From Peribolospora baueri (lineage: Eukaryota): a stretch of 64,000 nt of DNA. The translations under genes and the position numbers were made by a program. The DNA lies in NCBI GenBank assembly GCA_029717555.1, contig JAMDHS010000002.1, positions 372,001 to 436,000 on the forward strand. Reading direction: 5' to 3'. The notes below the pieces were generated by a model. It made no database searches, was not told the DNA's origin, and saw nothing but the letters and a program-made list of their open reading frames with translations. This document shows, piece by piece, positions 23,181 to 56,126 of the stretch (position 1 is its first letter; each line of letters begins with the position of its first letter).

Positions 23181-23738
23181 GGTCGGAGGGGCGCCCGTCG
23201 AGCGGTGTCGAGGGAATGGAGACCGCAAAGAGAGCGAGAGCAGCCAACTAGAGAAGGAATTCGGGTACGATATGCGTCTCTGTCAGGGACGGTGGGAGGA
23301 AGAGGATGGCGGGGAGCTGGGTAGAAGGTGATGCCGGGGGAAGAGGAGGCGCGGGGGGGCGGCGGCAGGCCCAGGAAGCGAGTCGGTGTCTAGCGCGTCA
23401 AGCACGCAGGGAAAATTTACAGGGAAAAGAAGGGGAGTATGGCGGTGGGAGGGAGAGGGGAGGAGGGGGGATGGTGAGGATGGAGGGAGGGGGAAGGAAG
23501 TGCTCGAGGTCGACTCAGCGACTCCATTGCCTTGCTCGCCTTCCCTCCACCGACTTCCCGCAATCGCCGCTCGTCCGCGTCCATCCCAGACGCCTGCGGC
23601 AGTCACGTGATCCTGCTGCGGCCCGGCGGCTGCGGCTGCGTGCCGATAACCTGGCGCCAGGTCTGATCGGCTGATATGAATGACATCGCCGCATCGCCTC
23701 GAGACGAGACGAGACGCGAATCAACTGGAGCGGCAGTC

Positions 23739-25114: not shown

Positions 25115-25722
25115 GGGATGCGGCGCGGGTGCGGGGTCGATCACCACCCTCACCTAACGCGTCCCGTCCAGCTGGAGCCTGGTCCGCCGTTACCGTACAC
25201 GGGCCTATTCTCCCCGACGCGTCTACCCCACCCGTTTCGGGAATCTCACGTATCCGTACACTCTATCTCAAGGAGCTCGCGAACTTGTATATACTGAATT
25301 GAAGGGAGGCCAGGACCCTCGTAGATGTTTGAGTATGGATGTACATAGAGTACTTTAGGTCATGCGTTGGCAACATCCCAGCGATAATAAACAAGTCGCC
25401 AACCAGAACGGCTGCCCCTCTAGAGAAGCAGGTACTCGGGACGCGTACGAGTCCAGGAGCGGACAGGGCGCAGCACCAATTTGCACCTAACGGCATCACT
25501 TCCCTCCACGATATCGTTTGCACGGAGCGTAGAGAGCGTAGATGGAGTACGTCCTCACACCATAACCCTACTCTTTGGCAGGCCGCGCGTCCGAGCTTCG
25601 ATCACTGGTTGCGGGCGATCATCGTCTCGCCGCCTTCTCATCCTCATCCTGTTCACTTCCTTTTTATCCCCTCCATATCCAACTAGCAGGGGCATACAAC
25701 GACCGCACCATCTCCAGCGCAA

Positions 25723-29407: not shown

Positions 29408-32400
29408 TCAAATGCGAAGCTCCAGGACTGCCTTGGCCTCCCTAGCCGATAACCGCCAGGAGATGTTGTCGCTGCCCGTCTGGTAGAATTCTTCTCCGTC
29501 TTCCGACTGGAGTCAAAAAAAAAAAGGAAGAAAAAAGTCACGAAATGCCATAAAAGGGGCTGCCAGTGATCAATAGGCAAGATGACAAAGAACAGATACG
29601 GGAAACGAAGAGCGGACTAACACTGTCGAGGTTGAGCAAGATGCTCATCTGCTGCAGTCGAGTGAACTTTTCTCGTACGCTGCGCGTCGTTTGGGAGGAG
29701 AGGTAGGTCGCCACATTGCGGATGTCCTTGTCGAAGCGGATGGCACCCAGCTGCGAGGTCAATCGCCGCGAAGAGACGGCACGCAGGTTAGCGGACGTGC
29801 TTCCCTCCTGGATCTGAAGACGTAAAGGAACAAAGAAATGGGGTGCAAGGCCAGCCTCGGAACTTGACTCACTTCGTTGAACCGCATGCCCATCACCATC
29901 TTCTCCCACGGTCGGATGAGCATCTCGACGCCCATGTCGAACATCGTCTCGAAGTTGGCGGTTGTCATGGGGCCCTGTCAGGGTGCCAAAGGGAGACGTA
30001 AGCCGAGTCCAGCGATCCTTCATCCGTCATTTCATCACCAGCCCTAAGTCTCCCTACGACCCGGAGAGAATGGATCACTAAGAGGGGCGCGACACGACAT
30101 ACCTTGTAAGCCTCCAGAGCGGCCTCCCACCCCTTGATCAGTCGCCTCCTTAGGACGTCCTGGTACTCTGCTTGCTCGAACGCATCCTCGTCCAGGATAT
30201 AGCTCACATCCCTGTACGCTTCGGAGAGGACGGGACGTAGTCGTGGTCGGAGCAGCTGGTCGAAAAGGTGCTGAAGTTCGGCCTGATCGACGGGAAAGAA
30301 AATCGTGCCAAGAGCGGATCACGGCGGCGATCTCAGCGCTTGACACAGCCCGACCAAAGTGCCTAGCTCTTCGACTGACTCACCCTGCAGACCGATCGAA
30401 ACACACTGGCGAGTCCATCTAGACTCTGGATGGACTCGACCGCCTGAGGAATCTCAAAGTCGAGAAGTGAGCGTCCGATGATGTCGCTACCGAGAATCTC
30501 TTGCACGAGACGTTCCATGTAGTCGGCAGACGTGGAGAGGTCGTTGAGGTAGATCTGAATGCATACAAAAGAACATGTTAGTGATGCGAAGTGACAGCCT
30601 CGCGCGTCACAAGTAGGCGACATCGAGCGGTCGGGCCGCACGCCTCACAATATTCAGAGTTCTTGCCTCCTTCAATGCTGCGTCCTTTGCCCCACCGATG
30701 CCACCCCCACTCGCAGCGCCGGCTCCCTGATTGCTCACGCCCCTCCACGCGGCCTCCATCCTGCGCAGCAACACGCCCGCATAGTCATCCTCCATCGCCT
30801 TCGTCACCCTTCGGACCATCGTGAGCAGGGTTGGAAGAGATGAGGTGGAAACGATACGCGTAAGCACGGAGCGGAGGAGGTAGAAGACATCATCTAGGAC
30901 GGAAGAGGTGTAGGGCTGGGTCGCCGTGTCGGGCGTGTCAATCGAGTGGGCCTGACCAAGGAGTTTTCGGACGAATAGAGTCAGTTTGTGGCGATCAAGT
31001 CAGACTTGTTTCATAACCAAGGTAAACGAGGTCGAGATCCGAAAACTTAGCTCACCTTTTCGATGCTGATCCGCAAATACCAGACTTCCATCGGCTCATA
31101 CACATCCTGCAGCTCCTGAGCGAGCTCACGAGCGAACGCGGACTCCGTCAAGACTTTGAGCTCTTCCGACTCGCGCTGCTCCGCATCTCCACTTTCGTCC
31201 TTGCTGACATTCGCCCCAACCGGAGAAGGAGTGGCTAAGGGCTTGCCGCTTGGCGGCGGTTCGCTCTCCGTGGATCGCTGCACATCCGCTTCCTGTTCAG
31301 CGTCAGGTCGTGTGTCCTGCATGACCTGCTCCAGTCCCCGTCATGTCCCCATCATGAGGCGAAAGCGAAGAGTATCGTTTCGGTCAGAATAGCTACGTCT
31401 CGACCGTATCTCCGAAACGCCTGGCTCACAACTCACCGTCAACCTCGCCTCGAGAAACTTCCTATACGTCCCCCACCTTCCGCCCATACTCGCCAGCTCG
31501 CCCAACAGCTTATCCGCTTCTCGGGCATCCAGGCCGTCGCCATCCTCCCCTGGTGTTGAGAGGTTGACTGGTGTGCTCCGGCCCGAATTGGGGTTGGAGA
31601 CGCCTCCGCGGGGAAGGCGGTTACGAGGGAATGAAGGTTGGGAGACGGCGGAAGAAAGAGCGAACCGGTGTTTCTTTATGGCGGCGAGCTGCAAGGTTGC
31701 AACGGGGACAGTTCCCGTCAGTGTCTGTAAAACGATTCGCGCCGGTCGAGCAGAACTCTTTTGCCGCGAAGCAGACGCAGACACGCGCCCCTGGAGGGAA
31801 TGACATGGGTATGGAGAACGACAACTCACGGTTCTTTTCACCTCCCTCTCTTCCTCCCAAGCCTCCAAAACCCTATGGGCAATGCGGTCGCACTCCTCCT
31901 GCAAGCCTCCCATCACACCGTCTCGGAAGCCTCCCAATCCGTAGAATTTGTCCACCACCGGCTGGTGCTGATCGATGAGCAGGGCGAGCGACTCGAGCAG
32001 GACGGTCAAAAGAGAGGCATAGTGATGAGGCGAGGTGGCTGGTGAGTGTGAGCGCGGAGGTGACGAGGCGTGAATTAGAATGAGGTCGCCTAAGGCAAGT
32101 CAGATGATCCATCGACGCAACCGGGGTGAGGCTCACCTTTCTCTCTACCCAGAATGCCTCCGCTCACAGCTCTCCCACCCCTCTCTCTAACGCTACCCCT
32201 AGCCCATGTACAGTACTCCTCCAGGCCCTCCTTATGATATCCAATGAGAGGGAAGAAGCGGAAGAACCGGCTCGTAGAGGCCTCGTCCAACGCGGCGGAG
32301 GCGGTGCGAAACCGCCGGGTGAAAATGTCCAGCAGTTGGCTGCGGAGTTTGGAAAGAGTTTGTGAGGGGGAGAGGGGGAGGTCTGTGGTCGGCTAGGTGT

Positions 32401-33201
32401 GTGACGAGGAAGGGATGGGGGTCTATGTGAGCCTCCCAGAATTACCTGGGCGGAATGCAATGCGCACGATCGCGCTGGAGGAACCGAGACTTACGACAAC
32501 GCTTTCGGCAAACTTGCTTTCCAAGACGTCCTTGTCGATGCTCATCGCTCTGGAGCAATGCCGAGTCGCCGCTTCCCAACCCTGTTGTTCCATAGCTGCG
32601 TTGAGGGCGAGGAGGGACGACTGTATGCAAGGAGAGTGACCACGTCAGCGGCCGAGCTCAAAGAAGCATGTGAGGAAACTTATTCTGTATACACTCTCTC
32701 CGTCGCCTTCCTGGGAGGTCAAACAGCTTCGCCCGCCGTTTGGCTCACCTTGAGGTCTTGCACCTTTCCAAGCATGTCCAGGGCCTTCTTAACTCTGCTC
32801 TGCTCCTCGTCGAGCCTCCTCACTCGCTCACTAATCCTCTCTGCCACCTTGGCCGTGTCCTTCAACCTCCCGTCCAACCCCTTTGCCTCGTCCATCACCT
32901 CGTCCACGCTCGGTGCTAGAGCCGTGACTCGATCCAAGGAGCTGGAAACGACGGCGCCGGAACGGGAGAGAAGGTTATCGAGATGTAGGTCGAGATGGTT
33001 GGAGTGAGAGCTGAGAAGACGTTGGGCTCGATGCACCTCGGCGAGCGTGCGCAAACTCGCGGGGTCGGGGATCGCCGTCCCCGTATCCGCCAACGAAGGC
33101 AAAGAGGTCGTCTCGCCTGTCCCTGCTGACTCCATCTCCGCCTTGCCGTTCGCCTTTCGATCCGGAGAGCCGCTTAAGCCGCCGGCGTCTAGGCCGGGCA
33201 T
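29408..33201 (-). CDS. COG4: Conserved oligomeric Golgi complex subunit 4, multi-exon
   Basis: TAKVAERISERVRRLDEEQSRVK, SRFFRFFPLIG..EGLEEY, LLESLALLIDQHQPVVDKFYG, YEPMEVWYLRISIEKAH, IYLNDL, RFNELGAIRFDKDIR..VREKFTRLQQ..LLNLD. Confidence 0.92.
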
Positions 33202-33885
33202 ATTTGGAGCACTGGAGAGCGCTACGATGCGCTCAGTGTGGCGAGGAAGAGATGCGGAGTCAAACGGCCGCTCCGGGCATCGAGACGTTTTCTCGTCCTC
33301 CGCCTGGCTGTCTGGCCGCTTGCTCGCGGTTGCTTGGTTCTGACGACGTCCGGACGACGGTGATATCCTTCCCTCGCCTGCTCGTACGTCCCTTCTTCCA
33401 TGAGTGTTCCCCGGAGTCCTTGCCGCAGTCGCAACCGCACGTGGACGGACGAGAGCATACAAGTACTTGTATACCGTACTATTTACTCGCACTTGCCCGT
33501 ATACCGCGACTAGAGTGCGCTGGCGCCGCCCTCGCCTTCGCCCATGCCACACGCGGAATCGAACGAAGCCTGCGCGCGAACCGGACGTCGCATTCAGCCT
33601 CCATCCAATTTGGACGCACCATCGCCATCGCATCTCCTTTCCCTCTTCCCCGTCACCGCCCCTTCTTTACTCCTGGAGAGCGATACCGCCTTCTTCTTCC
33701 CTCCCCCTCTCCCCACCGCTGCACTCGCGGACGCTCCCTTCCCTCAGGGCTGAGCAGTGCTCGTCTTGGTCTTCTCGCTCCTTCCCCTTCCCTCCTGACT
33801 TGGCCCCCCCGGTTGGACCAGGAACCGTCTCCTTCCCGTTCTTGTTTACCATCTTGGGCCGGAAGGACCCCTGCGCTCGCTCAGG

Positions 33886-36800
33886 ATGGCGGATTTGCTC
33901 TCCCCCTTTGCATCTGCCGGCGTGAAGGCCTGGTTCCCCGACAAAGAACGAGGCTGGATCTCGGCAGAGCTCACCAAGAACACCTCGGGCACGAACGGAG
34001 CTGTCTCGCTCGAGTTTGTGGACGAAAATGGCAAGACGCACACCGTTAAAACCACTGTGGCCGAGGTCGAATCTTCCAAGGGCGAAGTCTTGCCGCCGCT
34101 TAGGAACCCGCCGCTGCTCGAGGCTACGGATGACTTGACCAACTTGAGCTACCTTAATGAGCCGGCTGGTGAGTTATCCGTCAGAGCAGGGGCGGAGCCG
34201 TGTCGGCCCCCTCCGAGAGGAGCAGTGGCTACTCACCTCGCCTTTTCTCTAGCCGAAGCGCATGAACGAACTCGGGAACGACACGTCGTTGACCTCGCCT
34301 TCGCGCCCTCGTTCGCTCGTCTTCTTTCACTCTCCCAGTTTTGCACACCATCCTCAACCGATACTCTCAGCGCCTCATCTACACCTACTCAGGCATCGTG
34401 CTCATCGCCGTCAACCCGTTTCAGGCCGTGACGCTGTACGAGCAGAACATCATCCAGGCCTACTCGGGCAAGCGCAAGGGCGAGCTCGAGCCCCATTTGT
34501 TCGCCATAGCCGAGGATGCTTATCGGTGCATGATCCGGGATCGAAGGGATCAGACGATTGTCGTCAGCGGTGAAAGGTGAGTGGTGCCTACAAACACGGA
34601 TACGCGCCTCTTCGCACCATACTCACGTATGTACTTGTTCCTCCATGTTTTGTCTTCTCTCCTCGCTCACAGCGGTGCCGGCAAAACTGTATCCGCCAAG
34701 TACATTATGCGTTATTTCGCCACTGTTGACGATCCTGAGCGTCCCGGAAAGCGACGACCTGGCGCAGCGGGCAAGGACGCGAGCGGGATGAGTGAGGTCG
34801 AGCAGCAGATTCTCGCCACCAACCCCATCATGGAGGCTTTCGGTAACGCCAAAACGACGAGGAACGACAACTCTTCTCGATTTGGAAAATACATCGAGGT
34901 GGGTCTTGCCTGACATGATCGGGTCGGCTCTAAATGAATCGGAGGTGGTGTGCCTGCTTTTCTTGACTGTCATCATCGATGCTCACATCTCCCCCTTTAC
35001 GCGTTCCCCCCGTGCTCGTAGATCTTGTTCGACAAGTCGCAGGAGATCGTGGGTGCGAAGATGCGGACGTGAGTAGCTAGCCCTTGCTCAGCTCTGTCCA
35101 CTCCCCATTGTCGTCAAGGACGCCGCGCTCAAGCTGGAGTGGGTCGTTTCGTCACGTGCGTTCGCAGATACCTGCTGGAGCGGTCTCGTCTCAACTACCA
35201 GCCCGAGACGGAGCGCAACTACCATATCTTCTATCAGCTCTGCGCCGGCGCCCCCTCTTCGGAGCGCAAAAGCCTCGGGCTGCGCCCCGCATCCGAGTTC
35301 AACTACCTTAACCAGGGTGGCGAGAGCAGCTTGACGATCAATGGCGTCGACGATGTGGAAGAGTTTAAGACGACTCAGAAGGCCCTCAGCACTGTCGGCA
35401 TCACGATCGAGAGGCAATGGTGGGCGAAAAACGCGCGACTTATCTCGCACACAGAGCTGTACTAAGCCCACGCGTATCTGACATTTTTCCGAAACCGCTT
35501 CTAGGCACATTTTCCGCCTCCTAGCCGCCCTACTCCACCTTGGCAACGTAAAGGTCACCCAAACGCGCAACGACGCCTTTGTCGCCGAAGATGACGCTGC
35601 TCTCCTCCTCGCCACCAACCTCCTCGGTATCGATGCAGCCGAGTTCCGCAGGTGGCTCGTCAAAAAGCAGATTCAGATGCGCTCGGAGAAGATCGTTAGC
35701 AGCTTGACGGGCGCACAAGCGGCTGTCGTCAGGGATTCGGGTGAGTGGAGGGCGGGCGATGTAATGCCGCCACGGGAACGCGGGCGTGGATACAACGCTG
35801 ACTGCCGCGGCGTCCGGTCGCGCAACTTCACGCGTTCGGCTTGAATTTGTTAGTCGCAAAGTACATCTACTCCTCGCTTTTCGACTTCCTCGTCGCCACC
35901 GTCAACGAGAGCTTGGTGGCTGGTCCCGACATCGACGTGGAGAGCTTTATCGGCGTGCTCGGTGAGTTTCGGCTCTTCGCGTCTGTGTCTGTTATTATGA
36001 GAAGAAACAAAGGAGGGAGCAAACGGGATGTCTCTTAGTGCGGGGACGAAGGCTTAGTTCCAGCCGTTCCTGGTTACTCATTCACTCGCCACGTTTCGAA
36101 TTTTCGACAACACTTACGCAGACATTTACGGATTCGAGCATTTCAAGAAGTAAACCCCTGCGTCTTCCTTTCGTAGAATAAGTTGTTGCGAGAAAGGCGT
36201 ATTGACCCAGATTGTCTCTCCCTTTGGTCGGCCTCTTTGCAGGAACTCGTTCGAGCAGTTCTGCATCAACTTTGCCAACGGTGAGCTGACCAGCGTAGCG
36301 CACTGTGTGACGTATTGAAGCTTTTATACGGAGCGCACCTGAACGTGACTATTCCCTTCTCCATCTCCGTTGTGGGTCTCTTTGTTTTGTCTCATGCGCT
36401 CCTCGCCGCCACGCAGAAAAGTTGCAGCAAGAGTTCAACAGCCACGTCTTCAAGCTCGAGCAGGCCGAGTACATGCGCGAGGAGATCAACTGGACTTTCA
36501 TTGACTTTGTGAGATCTCTTTGGCTTGCTCTTCTCGATTGGCTGTGTTTGCGACATCCTTTTTACGGAGAATAAATCGAGTATCGTTTGTGTTCGAACTG
36601 ACGGATCGCCTGACAAATTTTCTCTGTGCAGTCGGACAATCAACCATGCATTGATCTCATCGAAGGAAAGCTCGGCATCTTGTCACTTCTTGACGAAGAG
36701 TCACGTCTCCCATCGGGAGCAGACTCGACCTTCTTGCAGAAACTCTACACCCAGTTCGACAAGAGGCCAGAGTACAAGAAAGTTTTCAAGAAGCCTCGAT

Positions 36801-39800
36801 TCGGCACCACCGCGTTCACCGTCGCCCACTATGCGCTGGACGTTACCTACGAGACGGAGGGCTTTATCGAGAAGAACAGGGACACTGTTCCGGACGAGCA
36901 TCTCGCTCTGCTCAACAACACGACCAATTCTTTCCTCAAGGAGGTCTTGGACCGCGCCGTCGCGGTCGGCAACGCGAGCAAGCATGACTCTATCGCAGCT
37001 TCGCTTCCCAGTGAAGATGGCGGGCCCACCACGGTTAGCAAGCGCGCGAGCATGCTCATGGACGGCGGTAACAAGCCCGGCCTGCGCAAGGCGGGTGGCG
37101 TGATGAAGAAGCCGACGCTGGGTAGTATCTTCAAAGGGAGCTTGATCAGCCTCATGGATACGATCGACTCGACCAACGTGCATTACATCCGTTGCATCAA
37201 GCCCAACGAGAGCAAGAAGGCGTGGGAATTCGAACCCCAGCAAGTACTTGGCCAGCTTCGCGCTTGCGGTGTTCTGGAAACTATCAGGATCAGCTGTGCC
37301 GGTTACCCGAGCCGATGGACGTTTGCAGAGTTCGCGGAACGGTACTACATGCTCGTGAACTCGTCCAACTGGGGCATGGCGGACATCAAGGACCTCTCGA
37401 CGTTCATCCTTAGACAGACGATTAAGGACGAGGACAAGTACCAGGTCGGCCTCACCAAGATCTTCTTCCGCGCGGGCATGCTCGCTTTCCTCGAAGCAAA
37501 GCGCTCCGACCGACTGAATTACCTGGTGACCATCATCCAGAAGAACCTGCGCCGGTATATCGAGCAGAAGCACTACAATACCATGCGCTCCGCTGCCATC
37601 GTCATCCAGGCCTGGTGGAGGGGCATTCTCGCGCGCAGGTTCGCCGAGAGTGTGCGGAAGGAGACCTTCGCCACCAAGCTTCAAGTGGCCGCAAGGGGTT
37701 ACCTCCAGATGCGCAACTTCAGAAGCGCGAGGCAGGCTATCGTCAGGATCCAGAGCAGTGAGTAAACCCTTTGATGCCGATTATCGCTCTCTTCGCCTCT
37801 CCCTGCAAGGTAGATGACAAGTCGGTTCTGACCATGCTTTTCTATCTCTCTCAGTCGCTCGCGGGTGGTCGGTGCGCTCCAAGTTCGGCCAGCAAAAGAC
37901 GCACCTCGCCGCCACGCGCTTGCAATCGCTCATCCGAGGTTGCCTCGTCCGCCGGAGGGTCCACCACGACAAGAAGAAAATCATCTACCTGCAGTCCTGC
38001 TATCGCCGTCGTCTCGCCAAGCGCGAGCTCGCCGCTCTCCGTACGGAAGCCCGGTCCGTCTCGCACTACCAGGACGTATCATACAAGCTCGAGAACAAGG
38101 TTGTGGAGCTCACGCAAAACCTTCAGAAGCGGACGAAGGAGAACAAGGAGCTTGGCGCCAAGATCCGCTCCCTGGAGCAGCAGCTAAACATCTGGCAGGC
38201 CAAGCACGAGGAGCTCGATTCCAAGGCCAAAGGTCTCCAAGCCGAAATCGCGAAGCCCACGGTGCCGCTCAGCGAGTTCGAAGAGCTGGAGCGCGCCAAA
38301 GAGGAGCTGGATCGCCGATACAAGGAGTCGTCTAGGCGCATCACAGAACAGGATAATCGCATTTCCCAGCTCATGGCGGACATGGAGAAGCAGTCGCAGG
38401 AGATGGAAGCCAAGGCAAAGGCCATCACAGGTCAGCAGGAAGTGTCGGCTTCGGACGCAGAGACGATTACCAACCTCCGTGCCGAGGTGGCCTCCATCCG
38501 AGAGCAACTCAACCGAGCCAACGCGCTCAACGCCCTGCAGAAGAACTCGAACCGGGCGGACAACGCTCAGCCGCCGGTATTCAACATGGCCACCGGTCAG
38601 AACGGTTTCACCACTTCGAAGCGCCGTCCTCGGCGTCACAGCGACGCCACGGCGATCGAGAACGGTCCCGCCGAGCGAGACTCCACCGACGAAATGCTCA
38701 TGGCCGTCAAGCGCAGCGCCGCGAACGCCAACCGCCACGTCTCTGTCGCCTTCGGTCCCGACGGCGGACAAGCTGGCTTCCGCTCGCCTGGCGGCCGGCC
38801 GTACAAGAACGAATACGATGACCCGTCCGAGGAGATCATCAAGATCTTGGAGGCAGAGGAGATGTTGGATGAGGACGTCCTCTTCGGCCTTATCCGTAAC
38901 CTGCGCATTCCCGCTCCGAGCCTCACCAACCCGCCGAGTCCAAAGGAGGTCCTTTTCCCGGCCCACCTCATCAGCTTGGTCACGAACGAGATGTGGAAAT
39001 ACGGCTTGGTCAGGGAGAGCGAGCGCTTCTTGGCTAACGTCATGCAGACTATCCAGCAACATGTCATGGTGAGCGAGATGGACGTCGATGGGCTCCTTGG
39101 ATTATCTATACTGTCGATGCCTAATATGCGTTTTATTCTACCCGCCTCACCCTCATCCAGAGCTTCCAAGGCGACGACGCGATCGTGCCCGGCATCTTCT
39201 GGCTCTCGAACGTGCACGAGGTTTTGTCGTTCGTGTGCATCGCTGAGAGCGACATGCTTCAAGGCATCGGCCCGGGTGTCGACGGCGCCGCGCGGTCCTT
39301 CGAGTGGGGCGACTACGAGCGCCTGGTGACGATCGTCAAGCACGACTTGGACAGCCTCGAATACAATATCTACCACACCTGGATGCAGGAGGCGAAGAAG
39401 CGGCTGCACAAGATGGTCATTCCGGCCCTCGTTGAGAGCCAATCGCTTCCCGGCTTCGTGACGAGTGACTCGGGCGGAAGGCTCTTCAACCGCCTCTTGT
39501 CTGGCGCGTCTACACCAGCCTACACCATGGACGACATCCTCGGCATCCTCAACAGGGTGTGGAAGAGCTTGAAGAGCTACTATGTCGAGCAGTCCGTCGT
39601 ACAGCAGGTCGTCACCGAATTGCTCAAGCTCATTGGCGTCACCAGCTTTAACGATTTGCTCATGCGCCGCAACTTCTGCTCATGGAAACGAGGTGAGTCG
39701 TCAACTGTTTGCGAAGCCGAGGAGGAACAGTGACTGACTGAGGAAGTGGGCTTCCTTCGCCCGTCGGACTCAATCAATAGCGATGCAAATCCAGTACAAC

Positions 39801-45815: not shown

Positions 45816-47919
45816 CTACTTCTCCGAGAGCGCAGCGACGCCGGGAAGGACCTTGCCCTCGAGGAGCTCCAGACTGGCACCTGTAAGGGGAAGAAAGCAG
45901 GAGACAGAAGGGAGGTTACGAGAGCAGGGCCACTGAGTCAGGCAGGAACCAAAGATCATAATGTGTAACTGAGATTAGTTCGAGCACTCACCGCCACCTG
46001 ATCGGATTATTAAAGTAGAGCGCGTGGAAGACGAAGTCGGTCGGTCAGAAAATCGGGTAGTAACGGCCCTCGAATGAAAAGGCCAGAAGCCAGACGCGAC
46101 CGCCCTCTCACTCACCGGTAGAAACGTGGCTGAGCCCCTCCTCGCCGCCGAACTTGGCGACGACGGTGGCGGTGTCACCGCCACCAACAATGACGGTCGC
46201 GCCCTTCTTCTCCGCCTCGAGGGCGGCATCGAGCATGGCCTTGGATCCGTTGGCAAAGTTGGGGAACTCGAACACGCCCGGGGGACCGTTCCAGAGAATA
46301 GTCTTGGACTTGAGGATCGTCTCGCGGAAGAGCTCGATCGACTTCGGGCCAACGTCGAGACCGAGATGGCCATCGGGGATGCCAGTCTCGTCCGTTGCAG
46401 TGCCGACCTGAGGACAAACGTAGAAAGCGAAAGAAAAGACGGGAAACGGTGCGCCAAATGCCATATAGTGTCAGTATGGAAGGGCCGGATTCCCTCAAGG
46501 CAGTCATAGTTCCACAAAATAACATACCTTGGCATCCTTGTCGAACTTGTCGCCCGTAACGTAATCGACGGGCAAAACCAGCTCAACGTTGTTCTTCTTG
46601 GCCTTCTCGAGGAGCGCCTCCACCTTCTTGGAGCCTTCCTCATCGAAAAGGGAGTTGCCGATCTATGGCCCGCGGAGAAGCAGTCCGAGGAGAGGCGTCG
46701 CCTTGTGAGCAACTCTTGTCCGTTGGAAGCTTATAACGCGGGAACAAAGGCGAACGCACCTTGACGCCGAAAGCGGCCTTCTTGAAAGTGAATGCCATGC
46801 CGCCGCCGATGATCATGGCGTTGACCTAGGTCGTGCAGTTAAAGAAAGTACATATCAGTCGAGCCTTCGTTCTAACCACCTAGGCGGTACTCATCCTCAC
46901 ATACCTTATCGAGCATGTTCTCGATGAGTTGGATCTTGTCTGAGATCTTGGCACCGCCGAGGATGGCGAGGAAAGGTCGCTCGGGGCTCTCCAGAGCCTT
47001 GGCGAAGAAGTCCAGCTCCTTCTTCATGAGAAAACCAGAAGCCTTCTGGGGCAGCTCGATGCCGACCATGGAAGAGTGTGCGCGGTGGGCGGTGCCGAAG
47101 GCATCGTTCACGTACACGTCTCCGAGGCTCGTTAGGCTCTTGCGGAACTCGGCCACCTTGGCAGGGTCGGCCTTGACCTTCTGGCCATCGGGGCCCTTGG
47201 CAGAGCCCTCCTCCTCAATGTGGAAGCGGAGGTTCTCCAACAAGAGAACCGAGCCGGCCGGGGCGTCCTTCACTGCCTTCTCCGCTTCCGGGCCGACGCA
47301 GTCAGGGACGAAGATGACGGGCCTGCCAAGGAGCTCGGATACCTTGCTGGCGACCGGCTTGAGGGAGTACTTGGGGTTCGGCTTACCGTCCGGACGGCCG
47401 AGGTGGGACATGAGGATGACCTTGGAGGCACCTGAAGAAAGAGGCCCAAAGCGGACGACGTTACCATTGGAGATTCCAAGGTCGGCTCATTGTCGTCGCT
47501 TGAGTCAAAGACAGGACGAGTGGACGACGAGATAAACAAAGGTCGTCTTTTGTTTCACGCACCCTGCTCGATCGCGTACTTGATCGTGGGAAGGGCAGCC
47601 ACGATACGCTGAAGTTTCGAGAAGAGGTAGGACAAAAGCAAGTGAGTACATGCGCCCTCAGTCTTTAGCTTGTGGGAATTTTTCTTCTGCATAAAGAAAG
47701 ACAACTCAACCCACCTGAGGGTTGGTAATGCGGTCGCCATCCATAGGGACGTTGAAGTCAACCCTGCCAAGGGAAGCACAACGGGGAATGCACGGGTGAT
47801 CTATGTGAGTGTCATAGTACGCTTCATGGATGATAAATAAGGTTGAGCACAAACCTGATAAGGACGGACTTGCCCTTGAGGTCGACGTCAGTGATGGCAA
47901 GCTTCTTGGAGAGAGACAT
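45816..47919 (-). CDS. PGK1: Phosphoglycerate kinase, multi-exon including a 6-nt microexon; possible readthrough extension to 45789
   Basis: [100 protein letters not shown]. Confidence 0.98.
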
Positions 47920-50098: not shown

Positions 50099-52334
50099 CT
50101 TTCTCTCATTTAAACGACCTAGCCGAGAAGCTTTCCCGCCCTCCGAGTCTACCATACTTTGAAATCCAAACGACTGTAGTCCCTCGGTGTCGACCCGGAC
50201 GTATAGATTTCGCTCGTCGAGGGAAAGGGTGAGAGGTCGAACGTCGCGACGCGTTTCAAACGCGCGATGGCCGATAATGAGGACTCGGATGGGAATTGGG
50301 CACATGCGGCTCGCCCCAGGACCGATCAGCGGTCCACGGACGGTCTATCTCCTTTCGCGGGTAGGGCGAAGACGCTAAACGGGCGGAACTCGTCAAGCCG
50401 CCCATTGACTGATCACTGTGGCGGAGACGAGCGTCGGCGTTGACCTCGTCGTGGCTCTTCCTACGATGCTTGTTGACGTCGGAATTGAGGGCCAAGCTAT
50501 CCTCGAAAGGGAAGCGTCGTGGCGAGGAATCACTTCCGCCGCCGACGTATCCCGTCCGACCCGGCGCATTTCCGTCGCCAAACAGGCCCTGGGCGCGAAG
50601 AACCGAGCCGGGGCGGGTCGGCACCTGCTTCTGGAGCTGATTATGTTTCGGACGACTCAAGAGAGCTCGTTGACGCAGGAGGTGGAGGGCTTCGTCTGTC
50701 GCCTTGGGAGTAGGCACGCTGATTTCCCGTTCGCCGCGGTCACCTACGCTGTCGCCGAAGCAAACGCCAGAGTCCCGCCTGATGGAGGAGGGAGGGTCTC
50801 CGGAGTGGCAGGCCTCGCTACATGCCTCCCTGATAGAGCGCGAGGGTGGAGAGCGGTCTCGATCTGCTCGAGAGGCTCTTCGCCTCTTATGCCCCGTACC
50901 CAAGTCACCGTCATCATCATGGTTGTGCGAAGACCTCCTCTTCCTTACCGTCCCCAACAGCCGCAAGGTCCCAAAGTCGCGAATATCGCCTATGTATGCG
51001 TCCTCTTCTCTCGAAAAGAGCGGCTCTTGATGCTGGACGGAAAACGAGGTGGGCGTGGAACCGTTGGGACCGGGAATGGACGATGCCGAGGTTGACCCTG
51101 GCGTCGATGTCGGCACGGATCCGATCTGCGGAGGCGGAGGCGTGAGAGTGAGCAAGTCGTCATCAAAGGCGACCTCGCGGCCACCGTCTTCGCGAGTTGG
51201 CGGACTAGAGGGAGACCGGCGCTGGGAGGAATCGGATGCCACCGGCGGTAGAGGCGGGAGGGTAAAGGAGTCGTCTCCGAAATCGATCTCGTAGTCGCTG
51301 CCTTCGCTTGACGGAGGACTGAAGCGAGGCGCCGAGTTCTTCTCGGCAGATATCGTGGAAGAATCTTTTGCTTGGTGGGCCCGAGGAAGCGACGCGAGAC
51401 GGGACGGTCCGTACTCGTACGGCGGTGTCGCACCGTGGCCGGCATGACGAGGAGACGGGCTGTACCTGCGATGTGACGACGAGGAGGAAGGGTAAGAAAG
51501 TGGCCGGCCAGCATTGGCGTCGGGTGGCGAGGGATCGCTCGGTGCTCTCGACGAGATCGAAGGCGGGATCATCGCTGTGGCGTGTCTGCGCATTCGAAAA
51601 CGATGCCGACGTCGATCGTCGTCCGTAAATGAAGGGTGGTGGTAAAGATGGGTTGAGTACTGATAGAGGGGAAAGTGATCAGGGTTGAGGAAGGCAGCAA
51701 AAGGCGATTGAGCGCGATTCTGAACAACGTGCGGCACCGGCTGGAGAAAATCGTGGAGAGCAGATGGGTGTAGGTCAGAGCGGGCCTCGGATCCGCTGCG
51801 GCTGAGATGGAGATGGGATGGGGCGTGGACCGGTTGCGGTCGGGTTGGTTGGAGGTAAGGAGGGAGGAAGTGGGCGCCAGCGATGCTTCATGGAGTAGAA
51901 AGAGATGAGGGCCGGTGCGGTTGCGACTTAAAGCCTCTGGACGAAGGGCAGTGCGGTGAAAGGAAGAGAGTGGTAGAAAGGAAGACGGTGAGGCCAGACT
52001 GGTGCGCAAAGGGCACAAGGGAGAGAAGAGAAAGACTGCAAGTACGCCTCGGCGCCTTGTTTGTTGTTCGTCACTGAAGACGGGCGACACACGCAAGTAA
52101 GGAAGAAAGGAAGAAGGTGGTGTCGAGAAGGACACGGCGGCCGCCCTCGTTGCTCGTCAGCGCCGCCTCGCCTCGAACCAGTCTCGTCGTCCATCGCTGG
52201 CCACCTTGTCGCCCATCCCGACTTGGAACCGAACCGACGCAGCGGCTCAGGGCGCGTCGAGCGTGTAAATGGACGCTCGCAGCAGCCTCGCGCATCGAGA
52301 CCGTCGACGCCGCAGGAGAGTCATGTTTGCCCAT
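49678..52334 (-). CDS. Hypothetical multi-exon protein with a large Ser/Pro/Arg-rich disordered centre; boundaries uncertain
   Basis: 493-codon ORF at 50256-51737 plus flanking ORF pieces with plausible splice sites (C-terminal ..RYAELIDRLFFDDAPYFCEWWR*). No recognised domain. Confidence 0.45.
50055..50098. repeat. 44-nt poly(T) tract (poly(A) on the minus strand)
   Basis: Read directly. Confidence 0.9.
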
Positions 52335-52625
52335 CTTCGCCTCCTTAGAGTGAAGAAGCGCAGCGCAGAGAAGATGAGAACAGAGAGCGGCGCTGGACGA
52401 CGTCTCTTGCCTTTCTTTTGCAGATCAGTGGAGAACGTAAGCAGACGTCGAACAAACGAGAGCATTGGCTCGGCCACGCCAGCCAAGTCGCCGCAGCCTA
52501 TCAGGGCACGTGCGCATTAGGGTTAATCAAATAATCCAACATGCGCGTCACCGCTAACCGAACGGACAACGGGCGGACAGACGGTGTGATCCCTCCCACG
52601 AGTCCTTCGCACCCCATTCCTTGAC

Positions 52626-53834
52626 CATGGCGCCCATCAAGCACATCACTTCTCATAGCGGTGAGCGGGAACCGCGTGGAGCGCTCATCGCGCTCATCGC
52701 CGTCTCGTTCGCTCACTCTTTTCTTTGCAACCTCGCCGAACCCATCTCGGCCAGACTTCGACTCCCAGCTCTCCTCGGCGGCGAACAAGCTCGTCGTCGT
52801 CGACTTCCACGCCACATGGTGAGGCCCGCGCTGAGAGGGATGGGAGAGGCGAGGGTGGAGGAGGCAAATCGATGCGAAGCGGAGGCAGATCTTTGGAGCA
52901 CCCCAGTCCGACTTGAGCTGACCCAGACCGGCCCATGTGTCTTCTCCCCGTCGCCTACGCTCGAACAGGTGCGGTCCTTGTCATACCATCGGTGAGCGAG
53001 CGCTATGGAGATATACTAGACGGGGCAGGAGAGCGTCTTGGACGACGGTGTCATTTCGTTTCCCATAAAACCGCGGACTGACGGATGCACGGACGGCCGG
53101 TTGGACGTTGGACGGATGTTCTTCTCGACACACTTCCTTCCCTCTCCCCCTCCCTCTCTTCCACAGCTCCGGAGTATGAACTCCTGGCACAGCAGGTGGG
53201 CTCCAAATGCGTCCTATCTCTATTCCGCTAGTACGGTCGTCTTCGTTCCAATCTCACCCGTTTCCGATTCCCTCCCTTCCTTCTCTATGCCTCTCCCGCA
53301 CCTCCCAGTACTCCCAAGCCGTCTTTCTCAAAGTAGACGTCGACCAAGTTCGATCGGTCGCGCAAGCATACTCCGTCTCCGCCATGCCCACGTTCTTGTT
53401 CATCAAGAATAAGAAGGTCGTCGACCAGGTGAGCTATTTTATTTTGCGCGCTGCGTGCCGGCGTTGGGTGAAAGCTCGGTCGTTCAGCCGAGTCTTTCCT
53501 GCCAGCGTGAACCGATGAAAACGAACAAGAGTCTGTCTGACGCAGCCCGTTCGTCCCTGTCTTTCCTCGCCCACGTCCTCTGACCCTTCAGCTCAAGGGG
53601 GCCAACCCAGGCGCTCTCCACTCCCTCGTCGGAAAGCACGCCGGCTCGACAGCCTCCGCCTTCTCAGGCTCCGGCCGCACCCTCGGTGGCAGCTCTTCCT
53701 CTTCCTCAACCTCCGCCGCCACATCTTCTTCGCTCCCGAGCGTATCGGGCATTATGGAGGGGCACGTGAGCATCGAGAACATCTTGCCGCTACTTTTGCT
53801 TGCCGGGTATCTGTTGTATGTCTTCACTCAGTAA
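52626..53834 (+). CDS. Tail-anchored thioredoxin isoform (Trx + SHP box + C-terminal hydrophobic segment)
   Basis: If the 53766 donor is not used, exon 6 continues in frame as ..FSGSGRTLGG..MEGHVSIENILPLLLLAGYLLYVFTQ* (TAA 53832-53834). Confidence 0.7.
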
Positions 53835-55239
53835 TGAGGGAAGGAGGGGGTATGAGCTCCAAGTCCCGGGCGGGGGGAAGAGGGGTTCGAGCTGGCGTTA
53901 CAGATCTGGCTCTATCGGAGCTGTAGACGGGCGCCGGAGACGTGATCGGAGTCGTCGTTTCCGTCCCTGGCAATACCATTTCGTCGGATATCATGGCATA
54001 TCCCATCCGTCGCCCTGTTCCTCCACCCGACCCCACCCCGTCTGGACGGGTCGGTTGGGTCGGCTTTGGCTTCGGTTGTACACGGCTCGTTTGACTCGAC
54101 CTGCGCGCCAAGCGTCTTTGCTTAATCCGAATTCTGTTCATACCCCACTCGCCTTCGTTTCCCCACCCACACGCCCACACGCGCAACCGCAACGCCCGTT
54201 CCCTTTCTTTTCCATCTCCCCCCATGCTCGCTCCCTCGCAACAGGAGTCGCTCCTTCCTGCCGTCGAGGTCAACCAATCCCACTGCCTCAATGAACAGCC
54301 CACCCGTTCCCTCAGGGGCATTATCAAAGGCCCCAGCGGAGATCGCTGGCTCGAGAGCGACGCAGATGAGCAGGTGCGCCCTCTCCTCCCCTTTTTCTCT
54401 TCCCCCTTCTCCTCCGCTGGGCTCGAACCGAGCAGGGCATCGCTGCGCTTATTGGACGAGATCGCCGACGTCTCTGTCGTCCTTCTGCTTCCTTCTGTCT
54501 CCCATCGTTCCCTCCTCCTAGCTCCTGCTCAACATCTCCTTCATGCAGAAGGTAAAGGTCTCCGCCCTCCTCCTCCGCACCTCCCCTTCCCACCTCTCTC
54601 AAGCGCCCAAGCGCATCAAGCTCTTTATCAACAAGAGCACGCTCGGCTTCGACGAGGCGGAGGACGCGGAGCCCGCGCAAGAGGTCGAGCTGACGGAGGA
54701 GCACGTCAAGGGCGGCGAGAACGGTGGCGGAGGACGGCCTGTGCCGTTGAGGTTTGTCCGCTTTCAGGCCGTCAACTCGCTCCAGGTGAGATTTTCGTCC
54801 GTTCTTCATTTTTGTTTTTCGGGTTTTCGGCCATTGGCATGGAGGAGAAATTGGCTTTGGGTGAAGAAGAGCGATGCCGTTCTTGTGTTGCTCTTTCGAT
54901 TCGAACGAGCATGGCCGGCTGACGGCCACGAACGACGTGGGACTCTCGCCCCTTTCTCTTCTCTTCCCGCCGCCTAGATCGCCGTGCTCAGCAACCAGGG
55001 CGACGAAGACACGACGCGGATTGACGCGATCGACCTGTGGGGCCAAGCGGGGGACACTTTCAACATGGTGAGCTAGCTATCCCGCCAAGCGGGCAAACTA
55101 GGTGGAGCGAACAGTGACGTGGACGTGGACGTGGACGTGCTGTCGCCCTCGTTGATGCGATCCTTTATGCCTTCCCCCCTCCCTTCCCTTTCTGTCCCGA
55201 CGAACGCAGAAGGACCTCAAGAAGGTGGAAGAGGAGTAG
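52626..55239 (+). CDS. TXL1: Thioredoxin-like protein 1 (Trx + PITH) isoform
   Basis: Trx exons give LVVVDFHATWCGPC..FLKVDVD..VSAMPTF. A phase-0 donor at 53766 and acceptor at 54244 join MEGH to ESLL..HCLNE..LESDADEQLLLNI.F.QKVKV..APKRIKLFIN..LGFDEAE..LRFVRFQAVNSLQI..NQGDEDTTRID (PITH). Confidence 0.8.
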
Positions 55240-55286
55240 ACTAAAGTAGATCAGATGCGGCTTTAGAGGGAAAAAAAAAAAGAAAT

Positions 55287-55319
55287 GGCAAGGCAAGGCA
55301 AGGCAAGGCAAGGCAAGGC
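55287..55319. repeat. (GGCAA)6+ pentanucleotide microsatellite
   Basis: Read directly, just downstream of the Txl1 stop. Confidence 0.9.
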
Positions 55320-56126
55320 GAATAGGGCACACAAGCTCGGTTGGGGCGTCCCGCTATGCGATATACAGTGTAGGACAAACATGAGCCGTTCCCCAAGGCG
55401 AGGCCAGCCGAATAAAGCCATTTCCTTCCCTCGCGAGGCTCGAACGTCGAGGTTGGACTCAATTGCCGCGAGCTTATGTCCTGGACGAGCGAGCAGGGAA
55501 GGGCATACACCAAAGTAGTTCGCTCTTCGCCTCCGCCATCCTCGTGCTGCTGGTGCTGACGCGAGGAGAGGCCGGGCCACCAGTTCGGCTCGATGTTGCC
55601 GGGTGTGCCGAGTCCATCCATCCATGAGCGTGAGCAAAGACAGGTTCACCAAGTCCGGCATCACTCTCTTGCTCGATTGTTATGACGAGAGATCCATGTT
55701 CCGAGATAAGCCGAGTCTGAGACACGCACGCTATATTCTACAGTGGGTTGCGAGACAAAACGGACTCGGTGATTACGGGAGAGTACGGCGGGAGTATGGA
55801 CGACTACGGGCTATTACGAGCGGACGATGGACGAACGATAGAGTGCCGGGCAAGAAACGTGCTGGGAACGTGGCGGAGCAAGAGAGACGGGAAGGGAAAG
55901 ACGGGACGGACACGTGGACGGAAAACGTAGAAAGAAAGTGAGGCCAGAGTGAGGGGCTGGATAGAGAACCGACAGGTCCGAATCCGATTCCATCTTCGCG
56001 AACGGTCACATTCAATAGGCACCATAGGCACCCAGTGTGGAAACGTTTAGAAGGAGAAAGAAAATAGAGAGAGAGAGACGCGTAACTTGAACGAGATCGT
56101 AGGGATCAGCGGATGATGACGTCCGA

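What the first reader, a model, noticed from the sequence alone, without database searches (positions are those of the whole stretch)
53592..54373. One thioredoxin locus may switch between a proteasome-type Trx-PITH and an SHP-box, membrane tail-anchored thioredoxin
Seen: exon 6 (from 53592) encodes FSGSGRTLGG and then reaches a consensus donor CAC|GTGAGC at 53766, exactly 58 codons in. Splicing it to the CAG at 54244 gives an in-frame Trx-PITH protein. Reading through it gives VSIENILPLLLLAGYLLYVFTQ*, a terminal hydrophobic helix. The 479-nt intron is much longer than typical introns here. Established: Trx+PITH is the TXNL1/Txl1 architecture that binds the 26S proteasome, and FxGxGxxLG is the SHP box that binds Cdc48/p97. 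Inference: splicing versus intronic polyadenylation produces a soluble proteasome reductase and a membrane-anchored reductase that recruits Cdc48, for example for disulfide reduction during ERAD or mitochondria-associated degradation. A third option is a PITH-only transcript from ATG 53993 (MAYPIRRPVPPPDPTPSGR|gtcggt at 54050, also phase 0), which would make this a gene caught in fission. I know of no description of this switch.
Basis: partly seen in the sequence, partly recalled or inferred. Interest (0 to 1): 0.85.

Follow-up and report, generated by a model that had tools for sequence, protein, structure and literature searches.

The report
Thioredoxin gene with alternative membrane-anchor ending
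A fungal thioredoxin gene of the proteasome-binding TXNL1 type can also end in a conserved membrane-anchoring tail hidden in one of its introns, next to a conserved motif that looks like a docking site for the protein-extracting machine Cdc48.

Summary
Exons 1-10 (52627-55239, +) give a 318-aa Trx-PITH protein that aligns end to end with basidiomycete TXNL1-type proteins. Reading through the donor at 53766 gives a 170-aa thioredoxin ending in VSIENILPLLLLAGYLLYVFTQ*.

The tail is not a chance intronic ORF. A full-library phmmer search with the read-through exon found 12 proteins that align across the tail and stop 2-5 residues after it. With cluster mates and one later search, 19 of 19 such sequences carry both F-x-G-x-G-x-x-[LI]-x-G and the helix. 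The named ones are all Ustilaginomycotina. Six Trx-PITH proteins from other basidiomycetes have neither feature.

So a Trx / SHP-like motif / tail-anchor protein family is real. I found no paper describing it.

The switch itself is not shown, because no RNA data could be had. Favouring a live splice:
- an ancient phase-0 intron at this exact boundary in 5 other loci
- a rare GTG-AGC codon choice that forms the donor
- a 130-nt AG-free tract before an in-frame acceptor
- the same junction in a Thecaphora gene model

Against it, an in-frame ATG at 54224 could start a separate 177-aa PITH-only gene. Cdc48 binding is inferred from the motif only.

The parts
52627..52660 (+). Exon 1 (ATG; MAPIKHITSHS)
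   Evidence: Gene model. End-to-end blastp alignment of the model with 300-aa Trx-PITH proteins.
52755..52818 (+). Exon 2 (thioredoxin domain, ends ...VVVDFHATW)
   Evidence: donor GTGAGG.
52969..52991 (+). Exon 3, a 23-nt micro-exon with the CGPC active site
   Evidence: WCGPC is completed across the exon 2/3 junction.
53167..53195 (+). Exon 4, a 29-nt micro-exon
53309..53428 (+). Exon 5 (thioredoxin domain)
   Evidence: Pfam PF00085, E 4.9e-8.
53592..53765 (+). Exon 6: end of the thioredoxin domain plus a Gly/Ser-rich linker
   Evidence: The linker is disordered in the AlphaFold2 model.
53661..53690 (+). SHP-like motif FSGSGRTLGG
   Evidence: F, G, G and G are invariant in alignments A1 and A2. 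Present in 19 of 19 tail-bearing sequences and 0 of 6 non-Ustilaginomycotina Trx-PITH proteins. Human Ufd1 SHP box is FRAFSGSGNRL (PMC5042407).
53766..53771 (+). Splice donor GTGAGC, which doubles as the Val-Ser codons of the tail
   Evidence: Same hexamer as 4 of the gene's other 8 donors. GTG-AGC is expected for Val-Ser in about 2% (this gene) to 7% (other ORFs) of cases by codon usage.
53766..53840 (+). Read-through tail VSIENILPLLLLAGYLLYVFTQ plus tandem stops TAA TGA
   Evidence: Conserved in 12 of 15 phmmer hits. P66, Y73 and Y76 are invariant. Predicted helix, pLDDT 86-92.
53841..54223 (+). Spacer: the rest of 'intron 6'. It must hold a poly(A) site for the tail-anchored form and, if PITH is a separate gene, its promoter
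   Evidence: No Pfam match in four of its longer reading frames on both strands. No Rfam match. The function of this stretch is inferred, not shown.
54224..54226 (+). In-frame ATG seven codons before exon 7 (MLAPSQQ|ESLL...), a candidate start of a PITH-only protein
   Evidence: The N-terminal length resembles stand-alone PITH proteins of Agaricomycetes.
54113..54244 (+). AG-free pyrimidine-rich tract ending in the acceptor caacAG
   Evidence: 130 nt without AG before the acceptor; the other introns have 40-131 nt. It is the only stop-free in-frame YAG acceptor (searched from 53840).
54245..54373 (+). Exon 7 (start of PITH, ESLLPAVEVNQSHCLNE...)
   Evidence: Pfam PF06201, E 7.7e-7.
54522..54785 (+). 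Exon 8 (PITH core)
   Evidence: Pfam PF06201, E 5.4e-24; 31 homologues.
54978..55067 (+). Exon 9 (PITH)
   Evidence: Pfam PF06201, E 0.0017 (below the cut-off when scored alone).
55210..55239 (+). Exon 10 (KDLKKVEEE, stop TAG)
   Evidence: The C-terminus resembles the DLSGLKKxEE ending of relatives.

Best explanation
The locus is a TXNL1/Txl1-type thioredoxin gene of a fungus related to the Ustilaginomycotina, and it has two possible endings.

Its ancestors had a short phase-0 intron exactly between the linker and the PITH domain. In this lineage two things changed. The linker gained an invariant SHP-type motif (FxGxGxx[LI]xG). The first 22 codons of that intron became a coding extension, a conserved C-terminal hydrophobic helix followed by stops.

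If the message ends inside the 479-nt interval, the product is a 170-aa thioredoxin. It would be held on a membrane by a tail anchor, with the catalytic domain and the SHP-like motif in the cytosol. If the interval is spliced out, the product is the classical soluble Trx-PITH protein, which also keeps the motif.

I take both products to be made from this locus, by competition between use of the donor at 53766 and 3'-end formation downstream of 53840.

The likely function of the anchored form is to bring a disulfide reductase and Cdc48 together at a membrane (ER or mitochondrial outer membrane; I cannot tell which). Disulfide-linked clients could then be reduced as they are extracted. The PITH form would do the equivalent job at the proteasome.

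Shown: both reading possibilities, conservation of tail and motif, and the age of the intron position.
Inferred: that both RNAs exist here, membrane insertion, Cdc48 binding, and the client-reduction role.
For: 1. Gene model. Ten exons and nine canonical introns give 318 aa. The model aligns over residues 1-317 with 300-aa Trx-PITH proteins (P0003, P0005, E about 1e-89). The 170-aa read-through model aligns over 1-168 with the 171-aa P0037 (49% identity) and over 5-168 with the 169-aa P0048.

2. The tail is coding.
- phmmer of the 80-aa read-through exon against 1.84 billion representatives gave 15 hits at E <= 1e-3.
- 12 of them align through the tail and end at their own C-terminus. One (P0046) follows the spliced route into PITH. 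Two are long low-complexity proteins.
- Invariant in A2: F24, G26, G28, G33, P66, Y73, Y76.
- 19 of 19 tail-bearing sequences (14 clusters) carry F.G.G..[LI].G.

3. Lineage. The named tail-bearing proteins are from Ceraceosorus guamensis, C. bombacis, Parajaminaea phylloscopi and Tilletia horrida. The spliced model is from Thecaphora frezii. The four species looked up (C. guamensis, P. phylloscopi, T. frezii, T. horrida) are Ustilaginomycotina.
- 0 of 6 Trx-PITH proteins from other basidiomycetes have the motif.
- 0 of 34 metagenome PITH loci have it on the + strand.

4. Ancient intron. 5 metagenome Trx-PITH loci (L001, L005, L011, L013, L025) have a phase-0 intron of 52-139 nt at the same linker|PITH boundary. 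Their read-throughs are not hydrophobic.

5. Signs that the splice is still used.
- The donor is GTGAGC, the gene's commonest donor.
- Val-Ser spelled GTG-AGC is expected in only about 2-7% of cases by codon usage.
- The acceptor sits behind a 130-nt AG-free tract, like intron 3 (131 nt), and is the only stop-free in-frame YAG acceptor.
- The Thecaphora model uses the same junction (PEGH|TSLL).
- The tail uses 0 of 7 Leu codons as CTC, against 24 of 31 in the rest of the gene (Fisher p = 2.7e-4). This fits a segment translated less often than the upstream exons.

6. The tail is predicted as a helix (residues 61-79, pLDDT 86-92) and the linker as disordered.

7. Likeness to the SHP box. The human Ufd1 box is 225-FRAFSGSGNRL-235. 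G230 and G232 are strictly conserved, and F225, F228 and L235 are highly conserved contact residues together with N233 (PMC5042407, passages read). The window has ASAFSGSGRTL. Several relatives have Asn at the N233 position, for example FTGQGNRL in P0039.
Against: - No RNA evidence of any kind: no junction reads, 3' ends or start sites.
- Three of the four public full-length gene models of relatives end at the tail, and none of those carries PITH. This would equally fit two separate genes.
- The one spliced model (Thecaphora, P0046) is a 913-aa merged model that starts at MPTFLF. It is probably ab initio, so it shows compatible signals, not expression.
- An in-frame ATG at 54224 gives MLAPSQQ-ESLL..., a 177-aa PITH-only protein. 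That resembles the 24 stand-alone PITH proteins (165-197 aa) found.
- No YTNAY or CTRAY branch-site match lies within 70 nt of the acceptor. Introns 3 and 7 share that lack.
- No obvious poly(A) signal was recognised after the tail's stop.
- The codon-usage arguments rest on 2 and 7 codons.
- The SHP-like motif lacks the Phe at -3. In Ufd1, F225A abolishes binding.
Confidence: 0.5

Rival explanations
1. Completed gene fission: two neighbouring genes. Gene A (52627-53837) makes only the Trx / SHP-like / tail-anchor protein. Gene B starts at ATG 54224 and makes a 177-aa PITH-only proteasome cofactor from its own promoter in the 386-nt spacer. The in-frame donor and acceptor are relics of the ancestral intron and are no longer used.
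For: - Public models of 167-171 aa end at the tail in Ceraceosorus guamensis, Parajaminaea phylloscopi and Tilletia horrida.
- 24 of 31 PITH homologues are stand-alone proteins of 165-197 aa that begin 0-22 residues (mostly 6-9) before SLL.
- Many metagenome PITH loci show no Trx signature for kilobases upstream.
- ATG 54224 is in frame, with no stop before exon 7.
- The interval is 2.5 times the gene's next-longest intron.
- PITH-only proteins (PITHD1) bind proteasomes (PMC12700798, passages read). Txc1 of fission yeast was seen there only as a reference title.
Against: - The donor hexamer is kept by a codon pair expected in only about 2-7% of cases.
- Frame compatibility, a 130-nt AG-free tract and the same usable junction in a second lineage would all have to be coincidence or very recent relics.
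- ATG 54224 has C at -3 and lies inside a pyrimidine tract.
- The tail's codon usage differs from the exons just upstream. This is hard to explain if the tail were on every message.
Confidence: 0.33
2. All three forms are made: the anchored Trx, the spliced Trx-PITH, and a PITH-only message from an internal promoter.
For: Every signal needed for each product is present in the window.
Against: No RNA data. Pfam finds nothing on the reading frame that contains it.
Confidence: 0.12
3. Chance intronic ORF: the hydrophobic tail and the FxGxG motif are accidents of a pyrimidine-rich intron and a Gly/Ser-rich linker, and only Trx-PITH is made.
For: - Read-through ORFs of 22 or more codons follow 55% of donor-like sites in the window. 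With many introns in 64 kb, one hydrophobic tail is not surprising on its own.
- A word-indexed search with the same exon found nothing.
Against: - Tail and motif are conserved in 19 of 19 sequences from 14 clusters, across at least four orders in two classes. Residues are invariant and the stop position is conserved.
- Read-through of the same intron in 5 other lineages gives nothing similar.
Confidence: 0.03

Closest known systems
TXNL1 / TRP32 (human) and Txl1 (fission yeast): thioredoxin-PITH cofactor of the 26S proteasome
   Same: - N-terminal WCGPC thioredoxin domain, flexible linker, C-terminal PITH domain (Pfam PF00085 and PF06201).
- Full-length alignment with basidiomycete Trx-PITH proteins.
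- The PITH domain is the part that binds the 19S particle in the human structure (PMC12700798, passages read).
   Different: - The linker carries an invariant SHP-like motif that is absent from 6 of 6 Trx-PITH proteins outside the Ustilaginomycotina.
- The exon before PITH can run on into a conserved tail anchor.
- Proteasome binding was not tested here.
SHP-box (BS1) cofactors of Cdc48/p97: Ufd1, p47/Shp1, SPRTN/DVC1, Derlin-1, ASPL
   Same: F-x-G-x-G-x-x-L in a disordered stretch. The window's FSGSG..L matches human Ufd1's 225-FRAFSGSGNRL-235 at 7 of 11 positions, including F228, G230, G232 and L235.
   Different: - No Phe at the F225 position.
- Asn233 is replaced by Arg in the window, though Asn is present in several relatives.
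- No SHP-box protein with a thioredoxin domain was found in the paper searches.
- Binding is untested.
SELENOS / VIMP (mammalian ER membrane reductase that recruits p97). Recalled from memory, not from any call
   Same: It works on the same proposed principle: a single-pass membrane protein with a cytosolic redox-active site and a p97-binding motif, linked to ER-associated degradation.
   Different: Unrelated in sequence. SELENOS has an N-terminal anchor, a VIM motif rather than SHP, and a selenocysteine redox centre rather than a thioredoxin fold.
PITHD1 / Txc1: stand-alone PITH proteins
   Same: If ATG 54224 is used, the downstream half would be a PITH-only protein of 177 aa. That resembles the 24 stand-alone fungal PITH proteins.
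   Different: The window's PITH has the TXNL1-type C-terminus (KDLKKVEEE) and is joined in frame to a thioredoxin by canonical splice sites.
Alternative C-termini made by competition between splicing and intronic polyadenylation (classic case: membrane versus secreted immunoglobulin heavy chain). Recalled from memory
   Same: One donor decides whether a membrane anchor or another ending is made.
   Different: Here the anchor lies in the read-through and the soluble domain lies in the spliced exons. The mechanism is unproven for this locus.

Membership tests
TXNL1/Txl1 (Trx-PITH) | Thioredoxin domain with a CxxC active site | tested here: met
   PF00085 on exon 5 (E 4.9e-8). WCGPC is formed across exons 2 and 3.
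TXNL1/Txl1 (Trx-PITH) | C-terminal PITH domain | tested here: met
   PF06201 on exon 7 (E 7.7e-7), exon 8 (E 5.4e-24) and, weakly, exon 9 (E 0.0017, below the cut-off when scored alone).
TXNL1/Txl1 (Trx-PITH) | Both domains on one polypeptide | tested here: inconclusive
   An in-frame canonical splice gives a model that aligns 1-317 with 300-aa relatives. No RNA evidence exists for the junction (one search listed no run).
TXNL1/Txl1 (Trx-PITH) | Binds the 19S proteasome through PITH | not testable with these tools
   Known for human TXNL1 (PMC12700798). Not tested for this protein.
SHP-box Cdc48/p97 cofactors | Core motif F-x-G-x-G-x-x-hydrophobic, with both glycines strictly kept | tested here: met
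   FSGSGRTL at 53661-53684. F, G and G are invariant in 19 of 19 relatives. The criterion is taken from PMC5042407.
SHP-box Cdc48/p97 cofactors | Upstream Phe (F225 of Ufd1) contacting the Nc lobe | tested here: not met
   The window has Ala at that position (ASAFSG). Relatives mostly have S, A or G. F225A abolishes Ufd1 binding.
SHP-box Cdc48/p97 cofactors | Motif lies in a disordered, accessible region | tested here: met
   In the AlphaFold2 model the linker has pLDDT 50-58 and no secondary structure.
SHP-box Cdc48/p97 cofactors | Physical binding to the Cdc48 N domain | not testable with these tools
   No fungal Cdc48 sequence could be obtained, so no complex prediction was run.
Tail-anchored membrane proteins | A single hydrophobic helix within about 30 residues of the C-terminus, with a very short segment after it | tested here: met
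   ILPLLLLAGYLLYVF followed by TQ*. Kyte-Doolittle mean over 15 residues is 2.35. Helix pLDDT 86-92. Relatives score 1.6-2.7 and end 2-5 residues after the helix.
Tail-anchored membrane proteins | No N-terminal signal peptide or other membrane segment | tested here: met
   By inspection of the 170-aa model, the N-terminus is the thioredoxin domain itself. No dedicated predictor was run.
Tail-anchored membrane proteins | Post-translational insertion into a membrane | not testable with these tools
   Needs localisation or fractionation.

The most novel reading that the evidence does not exclude
In a whole fungal subphylum, one ancestral TXNL1 locus serves both major protein-unfolding machines. 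Splicing of an ancient intron gives a soluble thioredoxin that docks on the proteasome through PITH. Ending the message inside that intron gives a tail-anchored thioredoxin that recruits Cdc48 through an SHP box at a membrane. One splice-versus-polyadenylation decision would then set where substrate disulfides are reduced before degradation. The locus would also be a living intermediate of gene fission.
Probability: 0.3. Interest if true: 0.8.

Novelty: new variant of a known kind. Interest (0 to 1): 0.62.

Why it matters
How disulfide-bonded proteins are made threadable for Cdc48 and the proteasome is only partly understood. TXNL1 is the one known reductase that rides on the proteasome.

A conserved thioredoxin with a Cdc48-type docking motif and a membrane anchor would be a natural candidate for the same job at the ER or mitochondrial surface. 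The group that carries it includes genetically tractable smut fungi.

The locus also shows how a new C-terminus can arise from the first codons of an old intron, and how a two-domain gene may come apart.

In practice, public annotations of these genomes disagree with one another. Some models are tail-anchored, one is a merged Trx-PITH model, and one lacks the active-site micro-exon. Recognising the family would let them be corrected.

Tried and rejected
- Whole genome of the window: none is held.
- RNA evidence: no RNA holder was listed for 52550-55350, so read laying could not be used.
- Word-indexed protein search with the read-through exon, longer proteins only: none of 2119 candidates scored. 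The exhaustive phmmer search later found the family, so that blank was a filter miss.
- Profile search with A2: only 3 hits among 7997 candidates.
- Metagenome scan with the tail profile. The first alignment was too variable to search with. With A3, 82 pattern matches were found and none was a relative. No DNA of a tail-bearing relative was therefore obtained, and synteny of tail and PITH exons in relatives could not be checked.
- Metagenome scan with PITH. It returned 34 loci, all from lineages without the motif. They served as controls only.
- ESM Atlas: no usable hit for the tail part, and only generic PITH clusters for the PITH part.
- Earlier findings of this scan: nothing on this genome or sequence, and only unrelated thioredoxin notes.
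- Rfam on 52300-55600: two sub-threshold matches, none in the 479-nt interval. No intronic snoRNA explains its length.
- Pfam on four of the interval's longer reading frames, both strands: nothing, so no sign of a nested gene.
- Composition profile: no clear boundary inside the interval.
- Fetching a Cdc48 gene through a metagenome record: the record is not held. No complex prediction was made.
- Paper searches found no described tail-anchored or SHP-bearing thioredoxin. Subscription journals are not covered.
Full report
**What is in the sequence**

- A ten-exon gene on the + strand runs from ATG 52627 to TAG 55239.
- Its nine introns have GT[G]NG[N] donors and YAG acceptors.
- The spliced product is 318 aa: a WCGPC thioredoxin domain, a Gly/Ser-rich linker containing FSGSGRTLGG (53661-53690), and a PITH domain.
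- Pfam finds Thioredoxin on exon 5. It finds PITH on exons 7 and 8, and weakly on exon 9 (E 0.0017, below the cut-off when scored alone).
- The model aligns over residues 1-317 with 300-aa Trx-PITH proteins of other basidiomycetes (E about 1e-89).
- Exon 6 ends CAC|GTGAGC at 53765/53766. The next exon starts at 54245 after caacag, in phase 0.
- That interval is 479 nt, against 94-192 nt for the other eight introns.
- Reading through the donor gives VSIENILPLLLLAGYLLYVFTQ and then TAA TGA, a 170-aa protein.

**Is the tail more than chance?**

On its own, hardly.
- 55% of 157 donor-like sites in the window are followed by an open frame of 22 or more codons.
- A stretch this hydrophobic occurs in about 0.75% of random frames. 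One such tail among the many introns of a 64-kb window is roughly what chance gives.

Conservation decides the matter.
- I searched the 80-aa read-through exon with phmmer against 1.84 billion representative proteins. There were 15 hits at E <= 1e-3.
- 12 of them align across the tail and end at their own C-terminus.
- One (P0046) follows the spliced route into PITH. Two are long low-complexity proteins.
- Adding cluster mates and two hits of a later profile search gives 19 sequences from 14 clusters, 33-59% identical to the window over this exon.
- In their alignment the linker is variable. F24, G26, G28 and G33 (the motif) and P66, Y73 and Y76 (the tail) are invariant.
- All 19 carry F.G.G..[LI].G. 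All end 2-5 residues after a helix of consensus EN-LPL-VLAGYL-YVF.
- AlphaFold2 on this alignment predicts a helix for residues 61-79 (pLDDT 86-92) and disorder for the linker.
- Most of these database proteins are plain ORF calls that cannot splice. They therefore say nothing about splicing. An intron would not, however, keep a protein-like pattern and a fixed stop.

**Who has it**

The named tail-bearing proteins are:
- Ceraceosorus guamensis XP_025370736.1 (169 aa)
- C. bombacis CEH18870.1 (a fragment)
- Parajaminaea phylloscopi CAO1631486.1 (171 aa)
- Tilletia horrida OC842_007122 (167 aa)

The spliced model is Thecaphora frezii KAN0062629.1. The four species I looked up (C. guamensis, P. 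phylloscopi, T. frezii and T. horrida) are all Ustilaginomycotina, from four orders in two classes.

Outside that group neither feature appears.
- 0 of 6 Trx-PITH proteins have the motif or a hydrophobic end. These are from Heterobasidion, Dentipellis, Sporobolomyces, a Microbotryomycete, Serendipita and one unnamed source.
- 0 of 34 metagenome PITH loci have the motif on the coding strand.

**The intron is old and the tail is new**

- In five metagenome Trx-PITH loci (L001, L005, L011, L013, L025) a phase-0 intron sits at exactly the linker|PITH boundary, for example LEGF|ASLNS.
- These introns are 52-139 nt long. Their read-throughs are short or not hydrophobic.
- Four other loci (L006, L007, L009, L018) read straight across that boundary.
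- The window's junction MEGH|ESLL lines up with these without a gap.
- The simplest history is that, in the Ustilaginomycotina, the first codons of an ancestral intron were recruited as a new C-terminus, the linker gained the motif, and the interval grew to 479 nt.

**One gene with a switch, or two genes?**

This could not be settled. No RNA run was listed, no genome is held, and no DNA of a tail-bearing relative could be fetched.

For a splice that is still used:
- The donor is the gene's commonest hexamer.
- It is formed by Val-Ser spelled GTG-AGC. By this gene's codon usage that is expected in about 2% of cases, and by other ORFs of the window in about 7%.
- The acceptor follows a 130-nt AG-free pyrimidine tract, like intron 3. 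It is the only stop-free in-frame YAG acceptor (searched from 53840).
- A second lineage (Thecaphora) offers the same in-frame junction.
- The tail uses no CTC among 7 leucine codons, against 24 of 31 in the rest of the gene (p = 2.7e-4). This would fit a segment translated less often than the exons before it. Overlapping 3'-end signals could also explain it.

For two genes:
- ATG 54224 lies in frame seven codons before exon 7. It would give MLAPSQQ-ESLL..., a 177-aa PITH-only protein.
- 24 of the 31 PITH homologues are stand-alone proteins of 165-197 aa, most starting 6-9 residues before SLL.
- Several metagenome loci have no thioredoxin signature for kilobases upstream.
- Three of four full-length public models of relatives stop at the tail.
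- No branch-site match lies within 70 nt of the acceptor, though introns 3 and 7 share that lack.

I put about 0.5 on both the anchored and the spliced product being made from the upstream promoter. I put about 0.33 on completed fission and about 0.12 on all three products. The donor is unlike the gene's nine others, and the peptide has no relative.

**The motif**

- The human Ufd1 SHP box is 225-FRAFSGSGNRL-235.
- The two glycines are strictly conserved among SHP proteins. F225, F228, N233 and L235 make the contacts, and F225A, F228A and L235A each abolish binding (PMC5042407, passages read).
- The window has ASAFSGSGRTL. It matches at F228, both glycines, L235 and three other positions, 7 of 11 in all. 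It lacks the first Phe.
- Several relatives have Asn at the N233 position.
- An invariant short motif in a disordered, otherwise drifting linker argues for a binding function. Cdc48 is the best-known reader of this pattern, but binding was not tested.
- If the splice is used, the motif sits upstream of the donor, so both products would carry it.

**Known or new**

- TXNL1/Txl1 and its proteasome docking through PITH are well described (PMC12700798, passages read; PMC10570131, abstract seen in the listing).
- PITH-only cofactors are also known: PITHD1 (passages of PMC12700798), and Txc1 (seen only as a reference title there).
- Six searches of the open-access library found no tail-anchored thioredoxin and no thioredoxin with an SHP box. 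Subscription journals are not covered.
- The proteins themselves are in public databases under generic names.
- I therefore class this as a new variant of a known kind. The functionally nearest system I can recall, from memory, is mammalian SELENOS/VIMP, a membrane-anchored reductase that recruits p97.

**Verdict**

- The tail and the motif are real and conserved.
- The alternative-processing switch and Cdc48 recruitment remain plausible but untested.
- Interest is moderate to high because the idea can be tested directly in laboratory smut fungi.

Noticed in passing
window 52969-52991 and 53167-53195: Two consecutive micro-exons (23 and 29 nt) carry the thioredoxin active site CGPC and the residues after it. 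The public Tilletia horrida model P0053 reads VVVDFHAIAPTF with no WCGPC. It looks like an annotation that skipped the equivalent micro-exon.
   Followed up: partly
proteins P0001-P0031; loci L002, L004, L014-L017, L019-L024, L026, L027: Many Agaricomycete and metagenome fungi have stand-alone PITH proteins of 165-197 aa with a TXNL1-type C-terminus (DLSGLKKxEE), and no thioredoxin signature for kilobases upstream. The Trx-PITH gene seems to have lost or shed its thioredoxin half repeatedly in Basidiomycota.
   Followed up: partly
window 53766-53834: The tail's codon usage is unlike the rest of the gene: 0 of 7 Leu codons are CTC against 24 of 31 elsewhere, and both Tyr codons are TAT. The T-rich end (TATCTGTTGTATGTCTTC) might double as a 3'-end processing element. 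This is unexplained.
   Followed up: partly
window ~55271-55319 and ~55114-55140: Just 3' of the PITH stop codon there is a run of 11 A followed by a (GGCAA)n microsatellite. Inside intron 9 there is a (GACGTG)x4 repeat.
   Followed up: no
window 52508-52513 and 53763-53768: The palindrome CACGTG occurs about 115 nt upstream of the thioredoxin ATG. It occurs again across the His-Val codons at the donor. This may be coincidence.
   Followed up: no
protein P0047: In the closest relative found, one open frame runs across the position of the window's intron 5 (VVDT-LQGADP). That intron therefore seems absent there, while the His-Val-Ser that forms the donor here is kept (DGHVSSEN).
   Followed up: no
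window, whole: Other genes recognised by Pfam on long open frames: GCIP (12262-13815 +), CN hydrolase (23667-25157 +), PHD finger (22308-23282 -), COG4 (31341-33666 -), myosin head with IQ motifs (36614-39329 +), phosphoglycerate kinase (46872-47486 -), mitochondrial ribosomal L27 (48398-49267 +), ZZ finger (2398-2964 +), and CPL1-like (5612-6481 +).
   Followed up: no
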